From a virus (taxonomy: Duplodnaviria > Caudoviricetes), in IMG/VR virus record IMGVR_UViG_3300009786_000034, positions 1-36,394 of that record: a stretch of DNA of 36,394 bases; one strand, given 5' to 3'. Below, piece after piece: positions 9,221 through 36,394 of the stretch; position 1 is the stretch's first letter; every line of letters begins with the position of its first letter. A program made the position numbers and the translations under genes. The notes under the pieces are model-generated. The model was not told the origin of the DNA, did not search any database, and saw nothing but the letters and a program-made list of their open reading frames with translations.

Positions 9221-9901
9221 TTAGAAGGCGTGCTGAATGCCTCCAAACACCGATACTGTTTCATCTGCATTAACAACGTCCTTGACATCTGTCAAGTCTA
9301 CCCCTACAAACAAGGAGGTATCCTCATTAATAGCTCTAGTAAGCAAGGTGTCCACTCCGTAATAAGTAGTCCTGTCTCCGCCTAGTTCTGTATTACCTGC
9401 ATTAGCAGATACACCTAGAGAATAATTCTCCCAGACTTCAAAACTCTGACTTAAGGAACCTTCAACAGTCGTTACGCCTCCGTCAGGGTTATGATAAACC
9501 CGAACGCTGGGGTCTAAAATAATTTCTAGCCCTAATTCAGCATAAACTTCTGTGCCATTACCTAGAACATGGTTGTCTGTGTAGTTAACTACCCCAATAG
9601 AAGTATCAATCCCCTCAAGAATCTTTACTCCAGTATGGGCTTGCAGTTGTACTTCATCCGTCCCATCCCTAGTATTTACTAGTCCTCCGATCCCGATCTC
9701 AAAACCTGCCAGATCTAGAGAAGTGTCAAACGTAGTTTGAATGCCGTCTTGACCTGTGGAAACCCCACGAAAGCTAAGTTCAGAATTATAGCTTGCGGAG
9801 AAATCCCCATGCAATTCGGCAGCGTTAATCTTTTTATAAGCAAATAGGCCCAAAAGGACTACTGCAACTACTATACCAATCTTTACGAGTTTATTTTTCA
9901 T
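9221..9901 (-). CDS. outer-membrane beta-barrel protein (TorF/TIGR02001-like putative porin)
   Basis: N-terminal signal-like segment, S.L.FRGVS motif, alternating beta-strands, EVYAELG, C-terminal Phe (GGIQHAF). Confidence 0.7.
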   Translation of the reverse strand: MKNKLVKIGIVVAVVLLGLFAYKKINAAELHGDFSASYNSELSFRGVSTGQDGIQTTFDTSLDLAGFEIGIGGLVNTRDGTDEVQLQAHTGVKILEGIDTSIGVVNYTDNHVLGNGTEVYAELGLEIILDPSVRVYHNPDGGVTTVEGSLSQSFEVWENYSLGVSANAGNTELGGDRTTYYGVDTLLTRAINEDTSLFVGVDLTDVKDVVNADETVSVFGGIQHAF

Positions 9902-15310: not shown

Positions 15311-17761
15311 CTACTTGGTGATTGTCTTTTTTATTTTTTTTGGAACAACTGTGACTTCGGGGCCTCTCGTTGAGATTTGAAAATCCTTTTCTCCACTCAT
15401 CAAGAAGGGGGCCAACTTATTTTCAATTTCTTCTTGAATGAGTCGTCTAATGGGCCTCGCTCCATCATTTTGTTCTTCGGTTTTTTTTGCTAAAATTGTC
15501 CGCACTCGTGGTAATATTTTAAGTTTAACATCTGATTTCCCAAGTTTTCTTTTTAAATGGGCCAGTTCTAAACTTACAATCTTTTTTAATTCTTCTTCTC
15601 CAAACTGATTGAAGACTAAAATCTCGTCAATACGATTTAGGAACTCGGGCTTGAAAAAGCGCTTAGCTTCTTTGATTACTGCCGCCGCTCCATCTTCTTC
15701 AGTTTTGGAGAACCCCATGCTTTTCGCATTCATAAGAGAAGCTCCTACGTTGCCTGTCAGGATCAAAATACAATTAGAAAAACTAACCTCTTTTCCGAAA
15801 CTATCTGTGAGCTTGCCTTCCTCCATTATTTGAAGAAGCATTTGATGAATAGACGTATCGGCCTTTTCAATTTCATCAAATAAGATAACCGAATAAGGAT
15901 TTTTCTTGACTTTTTCGGTAAGCTGGCCGCCCTCTTCATACCCTACATACCCAGGAGAAGAACCAACCAAGCGGGACCCTGAAATCTTTTCGGAATATTC
16001 AGACATATCTAATTGAATTAAGCAACCTTCTCCGCCAAAAGCTTCTTTGGCTAAAGCCTTGGCTAAATGGGTTTTTCCCACTCCGCTAGTACCTAGGCAC
16101 AAAAATGAGCCAAATGGTTTGTTCTTCTCCTTGAGGGCCGTATGCCCCCTAAGAAGAGAATTATAAATTTTAGTGATGGCTGCGTCTTGCCCTACAACAA
16201 TTTTTTGGAGACGATCATGGGCTCCAAGTAGCCTCTGAGAAGAAGAAGAATAAACAGAGTCTAGGGGAATTTTGGCTTTTTGAGAAAGAGCCTTAAAAAT
16301 ATTTTCCTCCGAAACCGAGAGCTTCCCTTTAGCTTTTTCTGACGCCCAGTCTATTAAGAGGGATTCGTATTCGCTGTATAGTTTCATTTGTTGGTGTTTA
16401 ATAGGGTTAACATCTCCAACAGCCTCGTCTTCTAAAAGCATAAGATCTTCTATCTTCTTTTCTAGCTCTCGCGCACGGGGAGGGCGCTTATAAAGCTTAA
16501 GTTTTGCCTTGGCTCCCGCATGATCCATTAAATCTAAAGCTTTATCGGGAAATCGCTTATCTCCCATGTATTTATCGCTTAAATGCACACAAAGCCGCAG
16601 TAAATCATCGGAGTATTTAATTCCATGAAATTCTTCGTAATAAGGGCGAGCTCCTTTAAGTATCTCGAGAGTATTTTCTAACGACGGTTCTTCTACTTTT
16701 ATTACCTGAAACCGCCTATCTAAAGCTCCATCTTTGGCGATGGTTTTTTTATGTTCTTCAAATGTCGTAGCCCCAATGCAAACAACCTCTCCCCTCGCAA
16801 GCGCGGGCTTTAAGAGATTAGCTGCATCCATAGTACCCTCGGCACTTCCCGCTCCCACTAAAGTATGGATCTCGTCAACAAAAAGAATGACACGCTCGTT
16901 GGTGGACGCCGCCTTGATTAGTTTTTTAAGTCGCTCTTCAAATTGTCCTCTATATTTAGTGCCCGCCACCAACAGGCCCATATCTACCCCATAAATAACT
17001 TTATTTAATAAAAATTCAGGAGCTTCTCCGCTGACGATACGCTGAGCTAAACCTTCGACAACAGCTGTTTTTCCTACTCCTGGATCTCCCAGTAGAATAG
17101 GGTTGCTCTTCTTCCTCTTACATAATACTTCCGCGACTTCCTTGACTTCTTCATCCCTACCAATAAGAGGGTCGAGCTTATCATTGCTGGCTAATTCATT
17201 AAAATTAATAGAGAACTTGGTTAAATCTCCCAACCGTAAATCATGATCCGCCGCAGGAATCTCGAGCACATCCTCCTCAGCCCCTTGCTCTAAGGGGCTC
17301 TCCGATAGGTCGTCGTCTAAAAAACGCCTTTTCATTGTCGCCGCCATCAGATTAGGGTCTACTCCTGCAGCTACAATATATTGATAAAGCGGAGAATTTT
17401 TATATTGAAAAAGTGCTAAAAAAATATGTTCTACTCCTACGTACCCGTGGTCAAGCCTTTCTGCTATCTTTACCGCAATTGTAAGCGCCTCCTGCGCCTT
17501 TTGAGAGAAAGATAATGCCGCCGTCCTCTCTCCAATAAAATTCTCGTCCTTATCAATAAGAGAAAGCAGGTAAAGCTGCAGCTCTGCTGGATCAAGCTTC
17601 ACTCCGCGAAGGGTGTGAGTAACCACGATAGCCTGCACCTCAAGGATGCCATAACACAAGTGGGCGATAGAGATAATTTCTCTATTACTCTCACGAGCGG
17701 CTAATTTAGCGATTTGTAAGGCTTCTTGCGCTCGAGGCGTAAAATTAGGCTTTGTCTCCAT
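15311..17761 (-). CDS. clpC: ClpC/ClpA-like ATP-dependent Clp protease ATPase subunit
   Basis: Double Clp-N repeat; NBD1 GDPGVGKT/LFVDEIH; short middle coiled coil; NBD2 GTSGVGKT/ILFDEIEKA; GYVG pore loop; MGF ClpP-docking tripeptide. Confidence 0.92.
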   Translation of the reverse strand: METKPNFTPRAQEALQIAKLAARESNREIISIAHLCYGILEVQAIVVTHTLRGVKLDPAELQLYLLSLIDKDENFIGERTAALSFSQKAQEALTIAVKIAERLDHGYVGVEHIFLALFQYKNSPLYQYIVAAGVDPNLMAATMKRRFLDDDLSESPLEQGAEEDVLEIPAADHDLRLGDLTKFSINFNELASNDKLDPLIGRDEEVKEVAEVLCKRKKSNPILLGDPGVGKTAVVEGLAQRIVSGEAPEFLLNKVIYGVDMGLLVAGTKYRGQFEERLKKLIKAASTNERVILFVDEIHTLVGAGSAEGTMDAANLLKPALARGEVVCIGATTFEEHKKTIAKDGALDRRFQVIKVEEPSLENTLEILKGARPYYEEFHGIKYSDDLLRLCVHLSDKYMGDKRFPDKALDLMDHAGAKAKLKLYKRPPRARELEKKIEDLMLLEDEAVGDVNPIKHQQMKLYSEYESLLIDWASEKAKGKLSVSEENIFKALSQKAKIPLDSVYSSSSQRLLGAHDRLQKIVVGQDAAITKIYNSLLRGHTALKEKNKPFGSFLCLGTSGVGKTHLAKALAKEAFGGEGCLIQLDMSEYSEKISGSRLVGSSPGYVGYEEGGQLTEKVKKNPYSVILFDEIEKADTSIHQMLLQIMEEGKLTDSFGKEVSFSNCILILTGNVGASLMNAKSMGFSKTEEDGAAAVIKEAKRFFKPEFLNRIDEILVFNQFGEEELKKIVSLELAHLKRKLGKSDVKLKILPRVRTILAKKTEEQNDGARPIRRLIQEEIENKLAPFLMSGEKDFQISTRGPEVTVVPKKIKKTITK

Positions 17762-17771
17762 CTGTTATTAT

Positions 17772-17777
17772 ATACAC
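17772..17777 (-). promoter_or_regulatory. GTGTAW motif
   Basis: GTGTAT 10 nt before the clpC ATG. Confidence 0.55.
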
Positions 17778-20362
17778 TATTTAATGTCGCTTAATTTCAT
17801 GAAAATTCTCTCATCTATTATTGAAAGGTTCTCCATAAATAAAATATCCTCTCCTTTTCGGGCAGAGAAAACAATAATGCTCTCTTTCTTTGGCATCTTG
17901 TTGTTACTTAAAAAATTGTCTACCCGATTATTCTGCTTCCAGCCCCCATCAGTTCTTTGCCTGCCATTAAGAAGCATAGCGTCTACGGAAGCGGTTTCAT
18001 CGGTTAGGGAAAATTTAATGTAATCATTTCCATTGCGGCTTCTGCGTTTAATGAGGTCCGAGATGACGGCAATAAACCGTCCTGGGGATCCCTCGTCAAG
18101 GTTAACTGAATGAAGTAAATTATCTAATTTCTGACCTTCAAAAACCTCCGTAAGGCGGTGCGTATAACTATAGCCTAGCAACTTCCTCTCGAAAAACCAG
18201 TTCGCAAACTTTTCCTGTTTTCTATTCTGATTATAAATCTCGCGATAAGGCATGTACTTTTTCTTGAAGGTGCCAAATCTTTTCTCCGACATTAAAATTT
18301 TTGCATCGTCTCCGAGTATCTTGCTCTTTAATACATCGGCAATTGAATCTAATAACTTATAACTATATTTTTCTCCTAACTCTACGAAATTTCTTTTCTC
18401 CCTATCTGTTAAAACATTAAAAGCCTGAGCCTCTAGCACTAGAAGTGAGCGGCTACCCTCTGAGCACGAAGACATGGCTCCCGCTTGAATTAGGGCAGAT
18501 AAGGTTCCGATGTTTAAGCCTGCACTTTTAGCGGTTAAAAAGATATCATATTTAGTTGCCCTGTCTGAATCCCTAAAGTCTTTAAGGTTTTGAAGAGACT
18601 TTTCACTAATCCCCTTAATGCTATTTAATCCATACCTAATATTAGAACCCTCTATAGTAAAATCCATATCGGATTTTATAAGATCAGGAGCGAAAAGCTT
18701 AATGTTAAAATGCGGTAGTTCTTGTGTGATCCTACAAATTTCATCATAGGGCGCAGGCTCAAACTTTGTCATTCGTAATAGCGAGCGGAAAAATTGAAGC
18801 GGGTATTTGAATTTTAAATAAGTAGTCCATGCCGCGAGAGTAGAGTAGGCAATGGAATGGCTTTTATTGAATGAGTAATTGGCGCTATCTTCTGCAACGC
18901 TCCATAATACATCACCGACTTCGTGAGGTAAATTATTTTCTATAATCTTTTGTTCAATCTTCTCCTTCCACAGAGACATCTCTTCAACCTTTTTCTTTCC
19001 GACAATACGGCGTAGCTGTTCTGACTCGTCAAGACTGAAACCTACTTTAACCGCCATCTTCATGAGCTGTTCTTGGTAGAGAGGAATACCTCCTGTATAG
19101 GATAGAACGTCATCAAAAAAGGGATGGATGCTTTGGGTTTCTCCTGTGGTAGCATACTTAGTATAACTATCCAAAAAATCTAAGGCACCTGGCCGACCGA
19201 TTGCAATCACCGCGCTGAGATCTTCAAGAGTCTTGGGCTTAACTTTTTTACATACTTTAAAATTAGTGTCTGCCTCGATTTGAAACAGTCCATGAGGACA
19301 GCGCAGGTCTTTTGCTAGCGGCTCAAAAACACTTTTATCGTCTAAGGAAATATCATCTACACTAATGCCAATTTCATCACACACGTCATAAATAACGCTT
19401 AAGGTTCTTAACCCTAGAATATCAAACTTAACCATTAACTCTGCCACCCAATTCATATCGTAACCGCTTACTAAGCCTCCATCACTAGTGCGTTGGAGTG
19501 GACAAATATCTTCTAGCTTTTGATGGGAAATCGCTATACCTGAAGGATGAACTCCTGTATTTTTATTAAGCCCTTCTAGCTTCTGCGCTACCTCATAAAC
19601 GTCAGTATTTTCTGCTACCCACGCCTCAAATTTCTCGCTCTCTAATACCGAATCTAATAAGGGGGCCACCTTGCCAAACTTTTTAGGGATAAAATCACTA
19701 ACAATATTGACATCCTGTTCTGAATAAAAGCCTACAATTTTACCGCACTCTTTAATGCAAAGCTTACTGCTTAGGGTGTTTAGTGTTAAAATATTACAAG
19801 TCCGCGCGGGATACCTCTGTTCAATGAACTTTACTACTTGAGACCTTTTCTCGTAGGAAATATCGTTATCAATATCCGCCAACAATGAGCCATCTAGATA
19901 AGTTAACCCATCCTTCCCTTCGATTTTCTTGGCTCGACTTTTGCTTACAAAGCGCTCGAAATATAAATCATATTTAACTGGGTCAATATTAGTGACCCCA
20001 ATCAAGTATAAAACAAGAGAACCTGCTGCTGATCCACGGCCTGGGCCTGTGGGGATATCATTTTCCTCGCAAAAGTTATGTACATCCCAATTAAGAAGGA
20101 TGTAATCTATAAAGCCAAGGTCTTCCAGAATATCCAGCTCTTCCTTGGCCCTCTCATAATAAGCGTCTTTATTTTTAAAATGATTAATCTCCCGTTTTTT
20201 AATGCCCTCCCAGCATAAACGCTTAAGAAAATCAAAGTTAGAAATGCTCTCTTCTACGCCTAAAGAAGTATAAAATCTTTTTTCTATTTTAATCTCAGGT
20301 AATCTTACTCCTGCGGGACAGGCATCCTCATAGCCTGCGAATGATTTAAAAAATTCGCTCAT
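17777..20362 (-). CDS. dnaE: DNA polymerase III alpha catalytic core lacking the N-terminal PHP domain
   Basis: GPGRGSAAGSLV, FERF, DIDND, HPSG, KFDILGL, YQEQ, YSFNKSH, C-terminal OB-like segment; ATG at 20362 overlaps the exonuclease stop. Confidence 0.93.
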   Translation of the reverse strand: MSEFFKSFAGYEDACPAGVRLPEIKIEKRFYTSLGVEESISNFDFLKRLCWEGIKKREINHFKNKDAYYERAKEELDILEDLGFIDYILLNWDVHNFCEENDIPTGPGRGSAAGSLVLYLIGVTNIDPVKYDLYFERFVSKSRAKKIEGKDGLTYLDGSLLADIDNDISYEKRSQVVKFIEQRYPARTCNILTLNTLSSKLCIKECGKIVGFYSEQDVNIVSDFIPKKFGKVAPLLDSVLESEKFEAWVAENTDVYEVAQKLEGLNKNTGVHPSGIAISHQKLEDICPLQRTSDGGLVSGYDMNWVAELMVKFDILGLRTLSVIYDVCDEIGISVDDISLDDKSVFEPLAKDLRCPHGLFQIEADTNFKVCKKVKPKTLEDLSAVIAIGRPGALDFLDSYTKYATTGETQSIHPFFDDVLSYTGGIPLYQEQLMKMAVKVGFSLDESEQLRRIVGKKKVEEMSLWKEKIEQKIIENNLPHEVGDVLWSVAEDSANYSFNKSHSIAYSTLAAWTTYLKFKYPLQFFRSLLRMTKFEPAPYDEICRITQELPHFNIKLFAPDLIKSDMDFTIEGSNIRYGLNSIKGISEKSLQNLKDFRDSDRATKYDIFLTAKSAGLNIGTLSALIQAGAMSSCSEGSRSLLVLEAQAFNVLTDREKRNFVELGEKYSYKLLDSIADVLKSKILGDDAKILMSEKRFGTFKKKYMPYREIYNQNRKQEKFANWFFERKLLGYSYTHRLTEVFEGQKLDNLLHSVNLDEGSPGRFIAVISDLIKRRSRNGNDYIKFSLTDETASVDAMLLNGRQRTDGGWKQNNRVDNFLSNNKMPKKESIIVFSARKGEDILFMENLSIIDERIFMKLSDIK

Positions 20363-20997
20363 AGCTCCACCTCCCACAACTGGCGCCTAAAAATCTTATA
20401 ATTCATCTTTACATCGTAAATAGCGTCATGAAGTTTTTTGGGGTCAAACTTTAAATCATAAGATTTACATAGCGCAGTGATACTAGCCTTCATTCCTCTC
20501 TCTCTAAAAGAAGTAAGCTTATATTGCCAAGACAAAAGGTTTTCTTTAGGAGGTTTCATTTCTTTATAAATTGCCTTGGCCACACATAGGGTGTCAATAA
20601 GATCAGAGAGGTAAGAGTAGTCGGGTTTCTTATTAAGGAGCTTCCTGAAAATAGAATGAATATAAACATCAAAACCTAATAAGTTATGGCCCAGCTTTAT
20701 ATAGGACGGGTCGTATAAATACTTTTCCAAAAAGTCTAAGACCTTTTCTGGCTCCACCGCTTCCTTCTCGTACTTGCGCCTGTTAAAGCCCGTAATTCGG
20801 GCGGCGTCTGCGGAGATATTTAAATCGTCCCACTTAATTAAAAAATCAAACTCTTTTTCTATCTCGTCTCCTTTACATAGAATAAATCCCAGTTGCCACG
20901 GTTTGTTGTCGAGGCTCGCTAGGTTGAGGTTGCACGTTTCAAAATCAAAGACCATATACTTTTGATTGGGCTTAAATCTTAGAAGTTCTTCTTTCAT
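20359..20997 (-). CDS. DEDDh 3'-5' exonuclease (epsilon/DnaQ-like)
   Basis: VFDFET, GHN..GFD, IDTL, HDAIYDV; start placed behind the promoter. Confidence 0.88.
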   Translation of the reverse strand: MKEELLRFKPNQKYMVFDFETCNLNLASLDNKPWQLGFILCKGDEIEKEFDFLIKWDDLNISADAARITGFNRRKYEKEAVEPEKVLDFLEKYLYDPSYIKLGHNLLGFDVYIHSIFRKLLNKKPDYSYLSDLIDTLCVAKAIYKEMKPPKENLLSWQYKLTSFRERGMKASITALCKSYDLKFDPKKLHDAIYDVKMNYKIFRRQLWEVEL

Positions 20998-21004
20998 CCT
21001 TAGT

Positions 21005-21033
21005 ATTGTACTATATTCCTTGTGGCTAGTCAA
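21005..21033 (-). promoter_or_regulatory. sigma70-like promoter
   Basis: TTGACT-17-TACAAT, 7 nt before the ATG at 20997. Confidence 0.75.
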
Positions 21034-21055: not shown

Positions 21056-21517
21056 ATGAGCGATATAAGCATTATAACTGGGGCAGCTGTCTGTATCTGC
21101 GGAGCCTTTGTCACGGGTTCCGTAGCGTTCGTTATTAAATCCTTAATGAATGATATTAGGCAGGCCGAGGTGACTGCGGAAAAGGGCATGGAATTTGTAA
21201 GATCTGAGCTTTTTGGTTTAAGGAAGTCTCTTGAGGCATTTAAGACGGAAGAGAGGCATAAGGATGATGATTTAAAAGTAGCTATTGATGGTACCAAGAA
21301 AGAACTAAGACAAGAAGCTAGGTCCGATAGAATGTATGTAGACCAAACTAAAGGTGAGCTCAAGAACGAAATGCAGAACTACTGGGGAAAGGCCGAAAAT
21401 GTTTTGGAGGCGCGACGACAGGATGTTTATATGATCCATAAAAAAATAGATGTAATCAAAGACTCGTTAAGCGAAAAGCTGGCCCACCTCAATTCCTCCC
21501 ATTCAAAAGAAAATTGA
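21056..21517 (+). CDS. membrane-anchored coiled-coil protein
   Basis: One N-terminal TM helix followed by a charged helical region. Confidence 0.75.
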   Translation: MSDISIITGAAVCICGAFVTGSVAFVIKSLMNDIRQAEVTAEKGMEFVRSELFGLRKSLEAFKTEERHKDDDLKVAIDGTKKELRQEARSDRMYVDQTKGELKNEMQNYWGKAENVLEARRQDVYMIHKKIDVIKDSLSEKLAHLNSSHSKEN

Positions 21518-21566
21518 TCGTTAGGTGGTCGCTAAAGTTTTCCTATGGGGATTTTTTTATTTTCAT

Positions 21567-21572
21567 GTGTAA
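21567..21572 (+). promoter_or_regulatory. GTGTAW motif
   Basis: GTGTAA 9 nt before the ATG at 21582. Confidence 0.55.
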
Positions 21573-21581
21573 CTATACTAC

Positions 21582-21929
21582 ATGAGCGTAAATGTAGCAT
21601 CCAGCGGAGTTTTTCTTGACATCACCAGTGATGCCACCAATCTAACTATTCCTATAGCCTCTATTCGATATGGGGGAGGGACGATAACCCAGGCAATAGC
21701 CACAGGAGATTACAGAGGACTCATGAGGGGAATACAGGAAAGTTACCATTATTTCATGACAGGAGTAGCAACAGGCACAAGTAACCCCGCTGACTTTAAT
21801 AAGCCTTCGTTTTTTGGCGACTCCCTTGGCGGCTACCAAGTTTATCAAAGCGATTATTTAAAAAGAACTTATCGGACTGACTTGTATTACGATATCATGG
21901 ACAGTCACACGATACCTGACGAGTCCTAA
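21582..21929 (+). CDS. hypothetical protein, possibly virion-associated
   Basis: 115 aa, G/S/T-rich; converges on the PHP gene with a 2-bp gap. Confidence 0.7.
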   Translation: MSVNVASSGVFLDITSDATNLTIPIASIRYGGGTITQAIATGDYRGLMRGIQESYHYFMTGVATGTSNPADFNKPSFFGDSLGGYQVYQSDYLKRTYRTDLYYDIMDSHTIPDES

Positions 21930-21931
21930 GC

Positions 21932-22660
21932 TTAAAGCCAGTCTTCAAAACAAAAAGAATCGCTTCCTTGATGGTCAAAATTAGGGACGTTTAAATCTCT
22001 GGTTTTAAATGTTCGATTACAAATACATTTATAGGTTTGGTAGGCAACAAAATCTTTTCTGTTTTTATAGAAAACGCTTTTAGTCTCCTCTATGCCATAA
22101 CAATTCCTATCACAATACGAATCTACTTTGTCTCCAACTAAGCCATCAAATGGTAAGCCATTGTCTTCTATAAAAAAGGTTGGGTCAGCGAAAGAGAAAT
22201 CAGGAGTGCAGTTAGCAAAAGACATGGCGTTATTAAAAATAAAAGAATCGTAAAAAGGTATAGCTAACTTAAGGTGATCTTCAGTCCATATATCTCGTAA
22301 GTATTCTTCTTTTAAAACTCCTTCTCCGTATCCAAAGGCATTTGTATAAATTTTATTTAATAACTTACATCCCTCTGAGTCTTTAGCGAAAACTATAACT
22401 TTGTGTTGACATGCTTCTTCATTGTCTGGCGCATTTGAAAGAGAAATTCTTAATCCAAACCTTAGTTCGAAACCATAAGTCTCGCATTTTTTACGGGCTT
22501 CGAGGAATCCAATTAAAGAATCTTCTACTAAAGCTACCTCCTTAAGGCCCCCTTCTTGGGCCAAGGCAAAGATGCTACGTTTCTTGGTGCGTTCATTAAT
22601 CTCTTCAAGAGTTAAAATACTGCGACCAATTGAATAGTGGGATTTAAATAGAGGAATCAT
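21932..22660 (-). CDS. stand-alone Pol III alpha PHP-like domain
   Basis: LFKSHYSIGRSIL, VALVED..GF, RFGLRI, HKVIVFAKDSEGCKLLNKIYT parallel the DnaE N-terminal motifs (H.HS.YS, A.TDH, I.G.E, HL.LLAK...GY.NL). Confidence 0.8.
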   Translation of the reverse strand: MIPLFKSHYSIGRSILTLEEINERTKKRSIFALAQEGGLKEVALVEDSLIGFLEARKKCETYGFELRFGLRISLSNAPDNEEACQHKVIVFAKDSEGCKLLNKIYTNAFGYGEGVLKEEYLRDIWTEDHLKLAIPFYDSFIFNNAMSFANCTPDFSFADPTFFIEDNGLPFDGLVGDKVDSYCDRNCYGIEETKSVFYKNRKDFVAYQTYKCICNRTFKTRDLNVPNFDHQGSDSFCFEDWL

Positions 22661-29998: not shown

Positions 29999-30424
29999 TT
30001 ATATATCCGCATAAGCCGTAAGTATACGAGAGTGAGGATTGAAGATACGAGGGGTAGGGCTAACCTGACGGTAGTACTTCTGCACTCTTTGTATGAGGGC
30101 TACAGTTACGTCCGTATTTATTTCAAATAGAAAATAATGAACCCTCATTATTTTTTGGGACAAGGCTGAGTAAAGGGCGCTTATATAGGGTTCGGGGTCC
30201 TCCTTTATCTTAATGAAAAACAAGGCGGGAATTTGTAAAGTATCTATCTCACTCATAACCTCCTCCAAGTGCTTAAGCTCTAGAACAGAGGTGAGGCTGG
30301 CGCTTTCGTGGGCGCTCAGGAAGCCCTGGTTGAAAATATTGAAAGCCCCTTTTTCTCCTCCAAAGGCATGAAGAAGCTTCTTGTAGCTCTTGAGTGCGCT
30401 ATAAATTAATGGTGCGCGATTCAC
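29999..30424 (-). CDS. hypothetical protein coupled to clpP
   Basis: GTG at 30424 overlaps the clpP stop (GTGA). Confidence 0.65.
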   Translation of the reverse strand: MNRAPLIYSALKSYKKLLHAFGGEKGAFNIFNQGFLSAHESASLTSVLELKHLEEVMSEIDTLQIPALFFIKIKEDPEPYISALYSALSQKIMRVHYFLFEINTDVTVALIQRVQKYYRQVSPTPRIFNPHSRILTAYADI

Positions 30425-31143
30425 TTTAACTCCCCTCTTATCTCGTCTACAAGACCGAGCTCTAGGGCTTCGTCCGAAGAGATCCACCAGTCTTTTCTGT
30501 CCCAGTTTCTTTTTATTTTAACCTTACTAAGGGTAGATCTTTTTGCAAAAATATCCAAGATGCGAGCTTCAATTCTTTTTATCCATGCTACTTCATCTTC
30601 AATTTCAAACGTTTTGCCGACAGCGCCAAAGGCTGCTCGATGAATCATAAGCCAAGCCTGATGCCCAATCCACCGACGATCTCCTGCCTGCAATAAAATA
30701 CCTGCCATAGAAGCCGCCATTCCTAGAGAGCCTGTAGTGACACAATGCCCGCGAGAACGGAGCTCTTGAATGAAATCAAATAAAACAAACCCGTCAATAA
30801 TCGAACCTCCTCCCGAGGAAAAGACAATTTCAATGTCACAGTTAGGATGCCTTCGTGACCACTGGGTTAACTTATACATACACTTGTTGACATTTGCTTT
30901 GTCTACCCCCGTATTAAAGCGGTAAACCATGTTCTCCTCGTCATGAGCTTTGTCTCTCCCCCAGTCTTGCTCTTTTTTCTTAGCCTCTATCAAGTTCATT
31001 CGTGCCATGTATTCGCTTTGATCTGCTTGCGCATTAATCTTGCGTGTTTCTGCTTTGAGTTTCAAGGTCTCCGCCTCAACCCTAAGTGTTTCGGCCTTAA
31101 TTTTAACTAACTCTTCTTTGGTTTTTTTTACGTCGTCTGGCAT
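30421..31143 (-). CDS. clpP: ClpP-like serine peptidase with an N-terminal heptad extension
   Basis: SSGGGSIIDG, GMAASMAG (Ser), LMIH (His), RKDWWIS..EALELGLVDEI (Asp). Confidence 0.88.
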   Translation of the reverse strand: MPDDVKKTKEELVKIKAETLRVEAETLKLKAETRKINAQADQSEYMARMNLIEAKKKEQDWGRDKAHDEENMVYRFNTGVDKANVNKCMYKLTQWSRRHPNCDIEIVFSSGGGSIIDGFVLFDFIQELRSRGHCVTTGSLGMAASMAGILLQAGDRRWIGHQAWLMIHRAAFGAVGKTFEIEDEVAWIKRIEARILDIFAKRSTLSKVKIKRNWDRKDWWISSDEALELGLVDEIRGELK

Positions 31144-31526: not shown

Positions 31527-31960
31527 TGGTGGAGATGGCGGGAGTCGAACCCGCGTCCTTGTGTAGATCTATAATTTATCTCGTTACAAGTTTGTCCTGC
31601 TTTTTTATGTTGTTGCAAACTCAACATTCAGTTTCATTTATTTGTCTCCGAATACTCAGCGAACTACAGTTTATGAATATGAATAACTTTTTCTGTTTTT
31701 GCAGATGTCGTCCCCACCTTCTTTTATCTGCGTCCAAGAGGCGAGGGGCAGCTTATGCTGCAACAGCCAGCTGACGCGCAACGCTCTTACGAGCTGCAAC
31801 CTTGAGAGTTGCCACCTTCTTAGAAGGATTGAAGCGGTCAAGCAGACCTTTTACAAGTTTAGAATTGGCACTTATGTATAAGCCTAGGCTTTTTAAGGAG
31901 CCAGCCCACTCCTACTTGCAATAAAAAATTTAGCTAACAAGTCGAATCCTTGTCATCCCC
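31527..31960 (-). ncRNA. ssrA: tmRNA (434 nt)
   Basis: 5' GGGGATG pairs with 3' CATCTCC-A-CCA including the G3:U wobble; GGATTCGAC; T-arm GCGGG-TTCGACT-CCCGC; pk1 AGGAG/CTCCT plus TGGGCT/AGCCTA; helix 2 pairing; tag ORF. Confidence 0.96.
31753..31869 (-). other. tmRNA tag reading frame (38 codons)
   Basis: ATAAGT-GCC resume context after pk1; ANSKLVKGLLDRFNPSKKVATLKVAARKSVARQLAVAA*; stop codon in the loop of hairpin GCAGC-ATAA-GCTGC. Confidence 0.85.
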
Positions 31961-31982
31961 ATATCAAATAACTAAAAAGAGT

Positions 31983-31988
31983 TTACAC
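31983..31988 (-). promoter_or_regulatory. GTGTAW motif upstream of the tmRNA
   Basis: GTGTAA 22 nt before the mature 5' end. Confidence 0.5.
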
Positions 31989-31991
31989 TAC

Positions 31992-32906
31992 TTACTTATA
32001 AATGTCAAGCTTCGGCTCCCTCTTAATGAGAAAAGGAAACTTAGTTAACTCGGTTGACGAGCTTCCCTCGCCCCCGTTTTTAAGGCCGCTATCCTCTACC
32101 GCAATTTTTTCAAGATTCTCTAAAGAAGGAGAGTCAATATTGGGATCAAGAGCCCAAAGCACATCGTTTTCCTTTGCCCAGCGCTTCATGCGTCTAATTG
32201 GGACCGTTAAATTAAAACCCTCTCCAGCCCCTCTTACAAGCATGCCTACATAACGACCATCGGTAAGAAACACTCCTCCTCCCGAGGAGCCTGGGAACGC
32301 GGTAACAGTAGTCTGGTCATACTCTCTTTTCCCGTGGATTCTGCCTACTTGAGAAACAATACCTGTCGTCATTGAATTTGCCCCCATCTGACCCAATAAA
32401 GAACCTACGTGAAAAAGGCTCGTCCCAATCGGAATGATGGCGTCGTCTTTATTAAGATAAAATCTAGCGCTTTCTTTTGAATAATCTTTGGCTCTCACCA
32501 TTAGAAGGGCTAGGTCATGTCCGTCATCTGCATTGGAATATTTAATTACCATTGCGTCCATCTTAATCTCTCCAACACGCCTGCCCTCTGCCACCAACTC
32601 TTTGACAATCTGTGCGTCCTTAAATTCTACAACCTTTCGTGGGCGTCCGTTTTCATCAATAACATCCCTGACGGTTCTGAGGTTATCCACTACATGGCCC
32701 GCCGTCCAAACGAAAGTGACTTCCTCCCCTTCGATTTCTCTTACGATAAGAACTCCCGAGCCTTCTGACTTACTCCACTTCCCCTCGGACTTAATAGTAA
32801 CGGAAATGTCTTGAAGAAAATTGGCGACTCGTTTTCTATTTTTTAAATCCTCTCCAAAAATAGGATTAAGGCTTACAAATAGCAATAATAATGTAATGTA
32901 TTTCAT
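31992..32906 (-). CDS. exported trypsin-like (S1) serine protease without a PDZ domain
   Basis: Signal peptide; GSGV, TAGHV, DLALL, PGSSGGG catalytic triad motifs. Confidence 0.88.
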   Translation of the reverse strand: MKYITLLLLFVSLNPIFGEDLKNRKRVANFLQDISVTIKSEGKWSKSEGSGVLIVREIEGEEVTFVWTAGHVVDNLRTVRDVIDENGRPRKVVEFKDAQIVKELVAEGRRVGEIKMDAMVIKYSNADDGHDLALLMVRAKDYSKESARFYLNKDDAIIPIGTSLFHVGSLLGQMGANSMTTGIVSQVGRIHGKREYDQTTVTAFPGSSGGGVFLTDGRYVGMLVRGAGEGFNLTVPIRRMKRWAKENDVLWALDPNIDSPSLENLEKIAVEDSGLKNGGEGSSSTELTKFPFLIKREPKLDIYK

Positions 32907-35360: not shown

Positions 35361-36394
35361 TTATACCACGCTAGGTTTAACCAAGAAATCGCCTGTAAAG
35401 ATTTGTCCAGTTCCTGTACAAACCTGTATCCCTGTGAGCCACTGTAATCCTAGGCAGTCTAAAATCATTTCTTCCGCATCTATCCATTCCATAGACTCTG
35501 CGGGCCCAGCTAAAAGACTGCACGAGGTTCCTCCTTCAGGAACGATACAATCCCCAGAAACCACAATGTATTCCTGGCCGTCGATACTCTCGGTATAAGT
35601 AGTGGTGCATCCTGTGCCCGTGATCGAATAAAGCTCCAAGTAGTTTTTACAAGCGGACTTCCCGTCAGCGCCTGTGATATTATAAAAGTCTTTTGCTAGG
35701 TTGCTCTGGTCAAAAGAGGTGCTCCCCGTTTCTGTCGGGTACTCTCCCCAGTTGCCAGTTAAGGGGGTGCAACTACCCGATATATAGACTGTATTGCCTT
35801 CCTTAAATGTCTCGATGCAACATCCTGTACCAGTAACGATGAGGGATCCGCCGTCATAATGCGTGATGATTATCTTATCGGCCTCCTCCGTTACGACCAC
35901 GTCCCCTCCTCCTGTTATCGTTTTGAATTGAAAATCATAAGCGCAATCGTCCCCTGTAATGCCGCTCAAAACTCCTGCGCCTTCCCCAATATTCTGTCCC
36001 GTAATAGAGGTGGTTCCTGAGATATAAAGAGTACTTCTAAAGGTGCCATCTCCCACCTCGTCCAGCCTAATGGAAGTTTCAATACAGCCCGTTCCTGTTA
36101 CGGAAACTAAATCGAGGTAATGATTGGGATCACATCCATCAGCTATACCCGCACTACCCGTCAGGTTATAAACTCCCCAAAGGAGATTGGTGTCAATCTT
36201 TTGGTTGGAATTAAGGGAGTCAATGCCTGTCACTTGTGGCATCGGCCAATTACCCGTTACCCCTTTGTTCATTCCTGAAATATAAAGAGTACTTCTAAAG
36301 GTGCCATCTCCCACCTCGTCCAGCCTAATAGAAGTTTCAATACAGCCCGTTCCTGTTACGGAAACTAAATCGAGATACTTTTCACAGGTGGCGG
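35361..36394 (-). CDS. Thr-Gly/Cys-rich repeat protein, putative tail-fibre or virion protein (start lies beyond the window)
   Basis: Frame is open to the window edge (...ATCEKYLDLVSVTGTGC); repeated YL(D/E)L.S(V/I)TGTGC...Y(I/V)SG modules. Confidence 0.7.
   Translation of the reverse strand, partial: ATCEKYLDLVSVTGTGCIETSIRLDEVGDGTFRSTLYISGMNKGVTGNWPMPQVTGIDSLNSNQKIDTNLLWGVYNLTGSAGIADGCDPNHYLDLVSVTGTGCIETSIRLDEVGDGTFRSTLYISGTTSITGQNIGEGAGVLSGITGDDCAYDFQFKTITGGGDVVVTEEADKIIITHYDGGSLIVTGTGCCIETFKEGNTVYISGSCTPLTGNWGEYPTETGSTSFDQSNLAKDFYNITGADGKSACKNYLELYSITGTGCTTTYTESIDGQEYIVVSGDCIVPEGGTSCSLLAGPAESMEWIDAEEMILDCLGLQWLTGIQVCTGTGQIFTGDFLVKPSVV
36014..36377. repeat. 106-bp intragenic direct repeat (36014-36119 and 36272-36377)
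   Basis: 258-bp offset; 3 mismatches, all at synonymous third positions. Confidence 0.9.

What the first reader, a model, noticed from the sequence alone, without database searches (positions are those of the whole stretch)
31753..31869. tmRNA tag is exceptionally long (38 aa) and strongly basic
Seen: the tag reads (A)ANSKLVKGLLDRFNPSKKVATLKVAARKSVARQLAVAA, with 6 Lys, 3 Arg and only 1 Asp. It keeps a canonical AN start and a hydrophobic -AA end. Established: typical tags are about 10 aa with an acidic/polar N-terminal part (E. coli ANDENYALAA). Inference: the inserted basic, amphipathic segment may be a private degron or adaptor site, or may give tagged products nucleic-acid or membrane affinity. 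The extra codons account for most of the extra RNA length.
Basis: partly seen in the sequence, partly recalled or inferred. Interest (0 to 1): 0.85.

Follow-up and report, generated by a model that had tools for sequence, protein, structure and literature searches.

The report
Phage tmRNA with swappable basic tag
An uncultured large marine phage carries its own ribosome-rescue RNA (tmRNA) whose tag frame is 38 codons long, positively charged and conserved as a peptide, and its relatives carry long tags of very different charge, so these phages likely retune how the proteins left on stalled ribosomes are destroyed.

Summary
A standard tmRNA (RF00023, 31527-31960, minus strand) has a 38-codon tag with 6 Lys, 3 Arg and 1 Asp. 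The resume signal and the stop-codon hairpin sit at their canonical places, so a shorter true tag is unlikely. Sixteen viral contigs keep a 38-residue basic tag. Among ten close alleles there are no indels in the frame and dN/dS is about 0.27. Identical RNA contigs cover only the tmRNA in four seawater metatranscriptomes. The tag belongs to a wider phage family (104 loci) whose called tags are 19-41 residues long with net charge -11 to +12; none is of normal length and all end hydrophobic. These phages also carry a ClpC unfoldase (11 of 11 near-complete genomes), but tag type does not follow the ClpC tree, which argues against a private tag-ClpC pair. Best reading: a working rescue RNA whose C-terminus is still a Clp degron and whose extension is an exchangeable targeting segment (inferred). 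The host is unknown, so host tags were not compared. The scan found similar long phage tags before on other DNA (e1-9573147, e1-6174770).

The parts
31527..31960 (-). Standard one-piece tmRNA gene, 434 nt; 7-bp acceptor stem with G3-U, encoded ACCA end
   Evidence: RF00023 111.8 bits; stem and end read out
31753..31869 (-). Tag reading frame: 38 codons plus TAA, net charge +8
31870..31875 (-). Resume signal (U85/A86 equivalents at 31874 and 31873)
   Evidence: sequence; conserved in alignment A2; PMC2481249
31885..31913 (-). Compact pseudoknot 1 (nearly invariant, so no covariation support)
31748..31761 (-). Hairpin with the stop codon in its loop, compensatory changes
31980..32008 (-). Sigma-70-type promoter-like site TTGACA-17-TAAACT, starting inside the 3' end of the upstream protease gene
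   Evidence: 10 of 12; similar site upstream of 6 of 11 alleles; function not shown
15311..17761 (-). Phage ClpC-type AAA+ unfoldase with N-domain, both AAA domains, pore loops and an MGF ClpP-docking-type loop; context gene, link to the tag not shown
30421..31143 (-). ClpP-like peptidase (best PHROG label: head maturation protease); next to the tmRNA here but not in relatives

Best explanation
This is a phage-encoded tmRNA with a real, selected 38-codon basic tag; it likely rescues ribosomes stalled during infection using the host's SmpB, and the tagged products are likely still destroyed through the hydrophobic C-terminal end, while the basic extension likely acts as an exchangeable targeting segment that sets which Clp unfoldase takes the product and how fast. 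Shown: gene, frame, purifying selection, RNA contigs, tag diversity in relatives, ClpC in the clade. Inferred: aminoacylation, tagging in vivo, degradation, and the role of the extension.
For: Intact tRNA-like domain, resume signal and stop hairpin. 38-residue basic tag in 16 viral contigs and 7 of 13 metagenome matches. Mean dN 0.121 against dS 0.453, dN below dS in 44 of 44 scorable pairs of 45; 0 of 12 gap blocks fall in the frame. An allele only 34% identical keeps length, charge and the L-x3-L-x2-RF pattern. Tags use CGY for Arg in 131 of 149 codons against 132 of 444 in 33 window genes. RNA contigs with no differences lie only on the tmRNA within 19.4 kb in 4 of 4 runs laid. All 65 distinct family peptides end in LAA, MVA, AVA, MAA, VAA or VAV although length and charge vary. 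The C-terminal ALAA is what ClpX and ClpA read (PMC3985003); ClpC takes the ssrA degron at its pore, not its N-domain (PMC12583610); a 27-residue Mycoplasma tag is a working degron read by a different protease (PMC8403727). No SmpB in 5 of 5 complete clade genomes.
Against: No tagging or degradation was measured. Opposite charges in relatives show that no single binding site explains the family's extensions. Half of the 38-residue alleles end in VA or AV and not AA. The +1 frame has no stop in 3 of 12 alleles. The codon counts and dN/dS pairs are not independent. RNA depth is only 2-3, comes from contigs, and the runs were chosen with a 1.1-kb stretch holding this gene. The host is unknown.
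Confidence: 0.5

Rival explanations
1. The tag is a functional cationic peptide, not only a disposal signal: on short nascent chains the product is mostly tag, which would bind nucleic acid, ribosomes or membranes, or occupy a host protease or adaptor.
For: Length fixed at 38; purifying selection along the whole insert (dN/dS 0.16-0.21 for the two halves); 5-residue periodicity of basic residues (0.84 and 0.85 at lags 5 and 10 against 0.33-0.63 at other lags); codons typical of highly translated genes; alleles move between phage backgrounds.
Against: The degron-like end is kept in every family member; acidic tags replace basic ones in close ClpC relatives (L385 and L389); no Pfam, NCBIfam or PDB match; amphipathy is not beyond shuffles.
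Confidence: 0.2
2. Private lock and key: the extension binds the phage's own ClpC and routes tagged proteins to a phage ClpC-ClpP.
For: ClpC in 5 of 6 basic-tag records and 11 of 11 near-complete family genomes; the only tmRNA found among 47 records fetched by a ClpC query was a basic 38-mer; ClpC monophyly of the basic-38 phages is not rejected (p-AU 0.058); ClpP-like gene beside the tmRNA in the window.
Against: ClpC also occurs with 19-21-residue and acidic tags. ClpCs of acidic-tag and of basic-31 phages are not clades (p-AU 0.0002 and 1e-53). No correlation of tag charge with any of five ClpC regions in 34 pairs (p 0.088-0.76). ClpP-like gene in only 1 of 5 complete genomes and labelled head protease.
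Confidence: 0.12
3. The long basic tag was taken unchanged from a host lineage in which such tags are normal.
For: Long chromosomal tags exist (27 residues in M. pneumoniae). Host tags could not be sampled.
Against: The pseudoknot-1 20-mer occurs once in 185,579 species genomes, on a contig identical in its tmRNA to a phage allele. Four tag classes sit on one backbone family, which points to change within phages.
Confidence: 0.1
4. Only ribosome recycling matters; the insert is a tolerated expansion kept by RNA folding or by the need for an open frame.
For: The tag region folds somewhat better than shuffles (z -2.0); four 15-nt units share 5-10 of 15 bases, as from old duplication.
Against: Only 1 predicted pair inside the insert shows a two-sided change; amino acids are conserved through synonymous change, and a 34%-identical allele keeps exactly 38 residues.
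Confidence: 0.08

Closest known systems
Standard one-piece bacterial tmRNA (SsrA, Rfam RF00023; E. coli)
   Same: tRNA-like domain with G3-U, pseudoknot 1, U85/A86-type resume signal, stop in a hairpin loop, hydrophobic Ala-rich C-terminus.
   Different: Phage-encoded; 38 codons against a most frequent length of 10 (PMC11915505); basic and not acidic; missed by ARAGORN at default settings.
Mycoplasma pneumoniae extended tag read by Lon
   Same: Long tag (27 residues) that still works as a degron (PMC8403727).
   Different: Chromosomal and tied to loss of ClpXP; here viral, longer, basic and still ending in AA or VA.
Described phage tmRNAs (Bacillus phage G, mycobacteriophages, DS6A; Streptomyces phages)
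   Same: tmRNA carried by a large phage (PMC4131195; 79 unique phage sequences in PMC11915505).
   Different: Annotated Streptomyces phage tags are 11-13 residues; DS6A lacks the tag frame. No cultured relative of this phage was found.
ClpC-ClpP of Bacillus subtilis and Staphylococcus aureus
   Same: The window's ATPase has these as best solved relatives and the same domain order.
   Different: Phage-encoded; no adaptor identified; no link to the tag shown.

Membership tests
Standard tmRNA (RF00023) | Full-length match above the gathering score | tested here: met
   111.8 bits against 47, positions 1-374
Standard tmRNA (RF00023) | Acceptor stem with G3-U and CCA end | tested here: met
   11 of 11 alleles
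Standard tmRNA (RF00023) | Resume signal after pseudoknot 1, open tag frame, stop in hairpin loop | tested here: met
Standard tmRNA (RF00023) | Present as RNA | tested here: inconclusive
   Identical contigs confined to the gene in 4 of 4 RNA runs, depth 2-3, contigs only
Standard tmRNA (RF00023) | Alanylation and SmpB-dependent tagging | not testable with these tools
   No SmpB in 5 of 5 complete clade genomes, so host SmpB is inferred
ssrA degron | C-terminal hydrophobic ALAA-like end | tested here: met
   Window ends AVAA; family ends listed
ssrA degron | Degradation of tagged protein by a AAA+ protease | not testable with these tools
   needs an assay
Phage-private tag and ClpC pair | Tag type co-varies with the ClpC | tested here: not met
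Phage-private tag and ClpC pair | Direct binding of tag to ClpC | not tested
   The complex predictor was not available
Histone-H1-like pentapeptide repeat proteins (Chlamydia Hc2; resemblance recalled, from no call) | Profile match | tested here: not met
   No Pfam family up to E 10 for 3 tags; periodicity alone is present

The most novel reading that the evidence does not exclude
These phages use tmRNA as an expression device: every ribosome stalled on broken mRNA is made to produce a 39-residue phage peptide, and the peptide allele (basic 38, basic 31, acidic 34-41, short 19-21) is swapped between phages as an effector in conflict with host proteolysis or defence.
Probability: 0.15. Interest if true: 0.8.

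Novelty: new variant of a known kind. Interest (0 to 1): 0.52.

Why it matters
Why phages carry tmRNA is open. A family in which the tag is never of normal length, is selected as a peptide, flips charge and moves independently of the phage's ClpC says that the tag itself matters, beyond ribosome recycling. Natural allele pairs on near-sister ClpC backgrounds (L385 acidic 34, L389 near-neutral 20) make this directly testable and could supply new degrons.

Tried and rejected
Downstream resume codon: the only in-frame site with T-5/A-4 inside the tag (Gly8, read by eye) is not kept in L149 and would still give 31 residues. ARAGORN at lowered thresholds gives wrong tags in the pseudoknot region. 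Exclusive pairing of ClpC with the basic tag looked strong after and fell. Conserved tmRNA-ClpP adjacency: absent in L082, L084, L087, L088, L227. A relaxed pseudoknot-1 scan added no member; 13 of 13 new matches had no Rfam hit. Host assignment failed: no cultured relative by DnaB, no organism names among the nearest ClpC or porin homologs except one bin label; the Verrucomicrobiota cluster for the porin is a weak lead only. The one genome-collection hit is a phage-like contig in a bin with three tmRNAs; the 9 of that bin's relatives that were read have 9-10-residue tags but are not shown to be hosts. No plasmid match. The AlphaFold model of the tag (helices 2-12 and 15-37, pLDDT 74, pTM 0.31) carries little weight. 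No tag-like decoy among 70 window frames. Lack of RNA cover on flanking genes is a weak hint only.

Full report
Observation. The window is a fragment of a large dsDNA phage: a near-twin contig is in IMG/VR, the replication genes match PHROGs, and 3 of 3 complete relatives tested carry a large terminase. Rfam finds one RNA, a full-length standard tmRNA at 31527-31960 on the minus strand; ARAGORN finds none. Both ends are fixed by anatomy. The resume codon has T at -5 and A at -4, the positions that set the frame in E. coli (PMC2481249, abstract and passages), 15 nt after pseudoknot 1. The stop lies in the loop of a hairpin with compensatory changes. The acceptor stem has G3-U and an encoded ACCA. 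A TTGACA-17-TAAACT site lies 20 nt upstream.

Conservation. Pattern scans gave 12, then 14 viral contigs with the 38-residue tag. Of 13 metagenome matches, 12 were scanned with Rfam and 7 are tmRNAs, all with this tag. Two more contigs, fetched by a ClpC query and so found independently of the tmRNA, carry an allele 34% identical that is again 38 residues with net charge +8. Across ten close alleles, mean dN is 0.121 and dS 0.453; dN is below dS in 44 of 44 scorable pairs, and the one pair dropped had dS 0 and dN 0.024. Variable columns are 23 third, 13 first and 9 second positions; none of 12 gap blocks in alignment A2 falls in the frame. The +2 frame has 3-5 stops in all 12 alleles, the +1 frame none in 3 of 12. 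Tags use CGY for Arg in 131 of 149 codons, TTC in 72 of 100 and GGY in 52 of 59, against 132 of 444, 94 of 454 and 229 of 542 in 33 window genes; AAC is not enriched. That these are codons of highly translated bacterial genes is my own knowledge, and the sequences are related. The AN start and AA end are not invariant. The second half has a 5-residue period of basic residues and may come from duplication of a 15-nt unit (inference).

Expression. Twelve runs were listed and four seawater metatranscriptomes of four studies were laid. Each holds contigs of 151-211 nt with no difference from the tmRNA, one of them spanning the tag, and nothing else in 19.4 kb is covered at 95% likeness. Depth is 2-3 and contigs cannot prove transcription, so this is supportive only.

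The wider family. Tags were called in 101: 66 of 19-21 residues, 14 basic of 38 (15), 11 basic of 30-33 (one a miscalled 20-mer) and 10 acidic of 34-41. Net charge runs from -11 to +12. None is near the most frequent length of 10 (PMC11915505, passages). All 65 distinct peptides end in three hydrophobic residues, 44 in LAA. On a tree of 80 backbones without the tag (11 loci left out for want of a call by that script), basic-38 and long-acidic tags are each one group, and basic-31 needs 2-5 changes. A more distant phage group found through the ClpP-like gene has another backbone and acidic tags of 30-35 residues (13 of 46 records, lengths counted by hand) and separates from the window's clade on a DnaB tree.

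ClpC and ClpP. The window encodes a ClpC-type ATPase with intact motifs. It is in 5 of 6 basic-tag records and 0 of 17 records of the distant group, but also in 28 of 48 family records of all tag classes, 11 of 11 near-complete, and in a complete genome with a 19-residue tag. In 34 tag-ClpC pairs, tag charge does not correlate with the charge of five ClpC regions. ClpCs of acidic-tag and basic-31 phages are rejected as clades, those of basic-38 phages are not (a 21-row subset). The groups were defined by tag, but the tests were run after I had seen the tree; four of the six acidic rows are also in the backbone tree, and they fall in two separate starred ClpC clades. So tmRNA alleles are likely exchanged without their ClpC. 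The ClpP-like gene is in 1 of 5 complete genomes, and SmpB in 0 of 5.

Mechanism. I commit to a working rescue RNA that uses host SmpB, with the C-terminus as a Clp degron and the extension as an exchangeable targeting segment (0.5). Published support: C-terminal ALAA is read by ClpX and ClpA (PMC3985003, passages); ClpC takes the ssrA degron at the pore (PMC12583610, passages); a 27-residue tag degrades via Lon in M. pneumoniae (PMC8403727, passages). Rivals are a functional cationic peptide (0.2), a private ClpC pair (0.12), inheritance from a long-tag host (0.1) and tolerated expansion (0.08). The host was not identified, so the host comparison is open; earlier scan notes point to Verrucomicrobiota with short tags, which I did not test.

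Known and new. Phage tmRNAs are known (PMC4131195, passages; PMC11915505, introduction, methods and first part of results). Eight full-text searches (listings and abstract starts) showed no paper on long or basic phage tags; subscription journals are mostly missing. The one supplementary file of PMC11915505 gave no hit for five terms, and its sequence database was not seen, so such tags may be listed there. The scan's own notes record similar tags on other DNA. Verdict: a real, selected, unusual variant of a known system, function untested; interest 0.52.

Noticed in passing
L116-L128 (G004, G007-G009, G012, G014, G016-G018, G023, G030, G033, G039): A second marine phage group with a different tmRNA backbone and acidic 30-35-residue tags; no ClpC in 3 of 3 near-complete genomes. 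Several have an A3-U acceptor variant (5' GGGAGCG).
   Followed up: partly
L334, L347, L350, L358, L361, L390, L401, L411, L331, L313: Basic 31-33-residue tags that look like a duplicated form of the 20-residue basic tag, scattered on both trees.
   Followed up: partly
L385 and L389 (G133, G173): Near-sister ClpC proteins with an acidic 34-residue and a near-neutral 20-residue tag: a natural pair for swap tests.
   Followed up: partly
L108:323-738 and L148:256-669: T-arm sequences that depart from the usual tmRNA T-stem-loop.
   Followed up: no
L304, L325, L345, L348, L357, L359, L366, L367, L376, L403: D-loop region reads GGATTTGA in place of GGATTCGA in many family members.
   Followed up: no
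window 9221-9901 (-): Predicted TorF/Gcw_chp-like outer-membrane porin with a signal peptide, common in viral clusters.
   Followed up: partly
window 31992-32906 (-): Trypsin-like serine protease directly upstream of the tmRNA, also in L082 and L084; its 3' end holds the promoter-like -35 box.
   Followed up: no
window 35361-36314 (-): ORF with an internal repeat of its first 17 or so residues (near residues 1 and 88) and no Pfam or PHROG match.
   Followed up: no
window 21056-21929 (+): Two small unknown genes on the opposite strand inside the split DnaE region (PHP domain 21932-22660, exonuclease 20359-21033, catalytic part 17777-20377).
   Followed up: no
L093-L096 (G001): A genome bin holding three tmRNAs, one identical to a phage allele: likely misbinned phage contigs.
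   Followed up: partly
L169/L171 (G072) and L434 (G128): ClpC genes interrupted by stops or a frame change.
   Followed up: no
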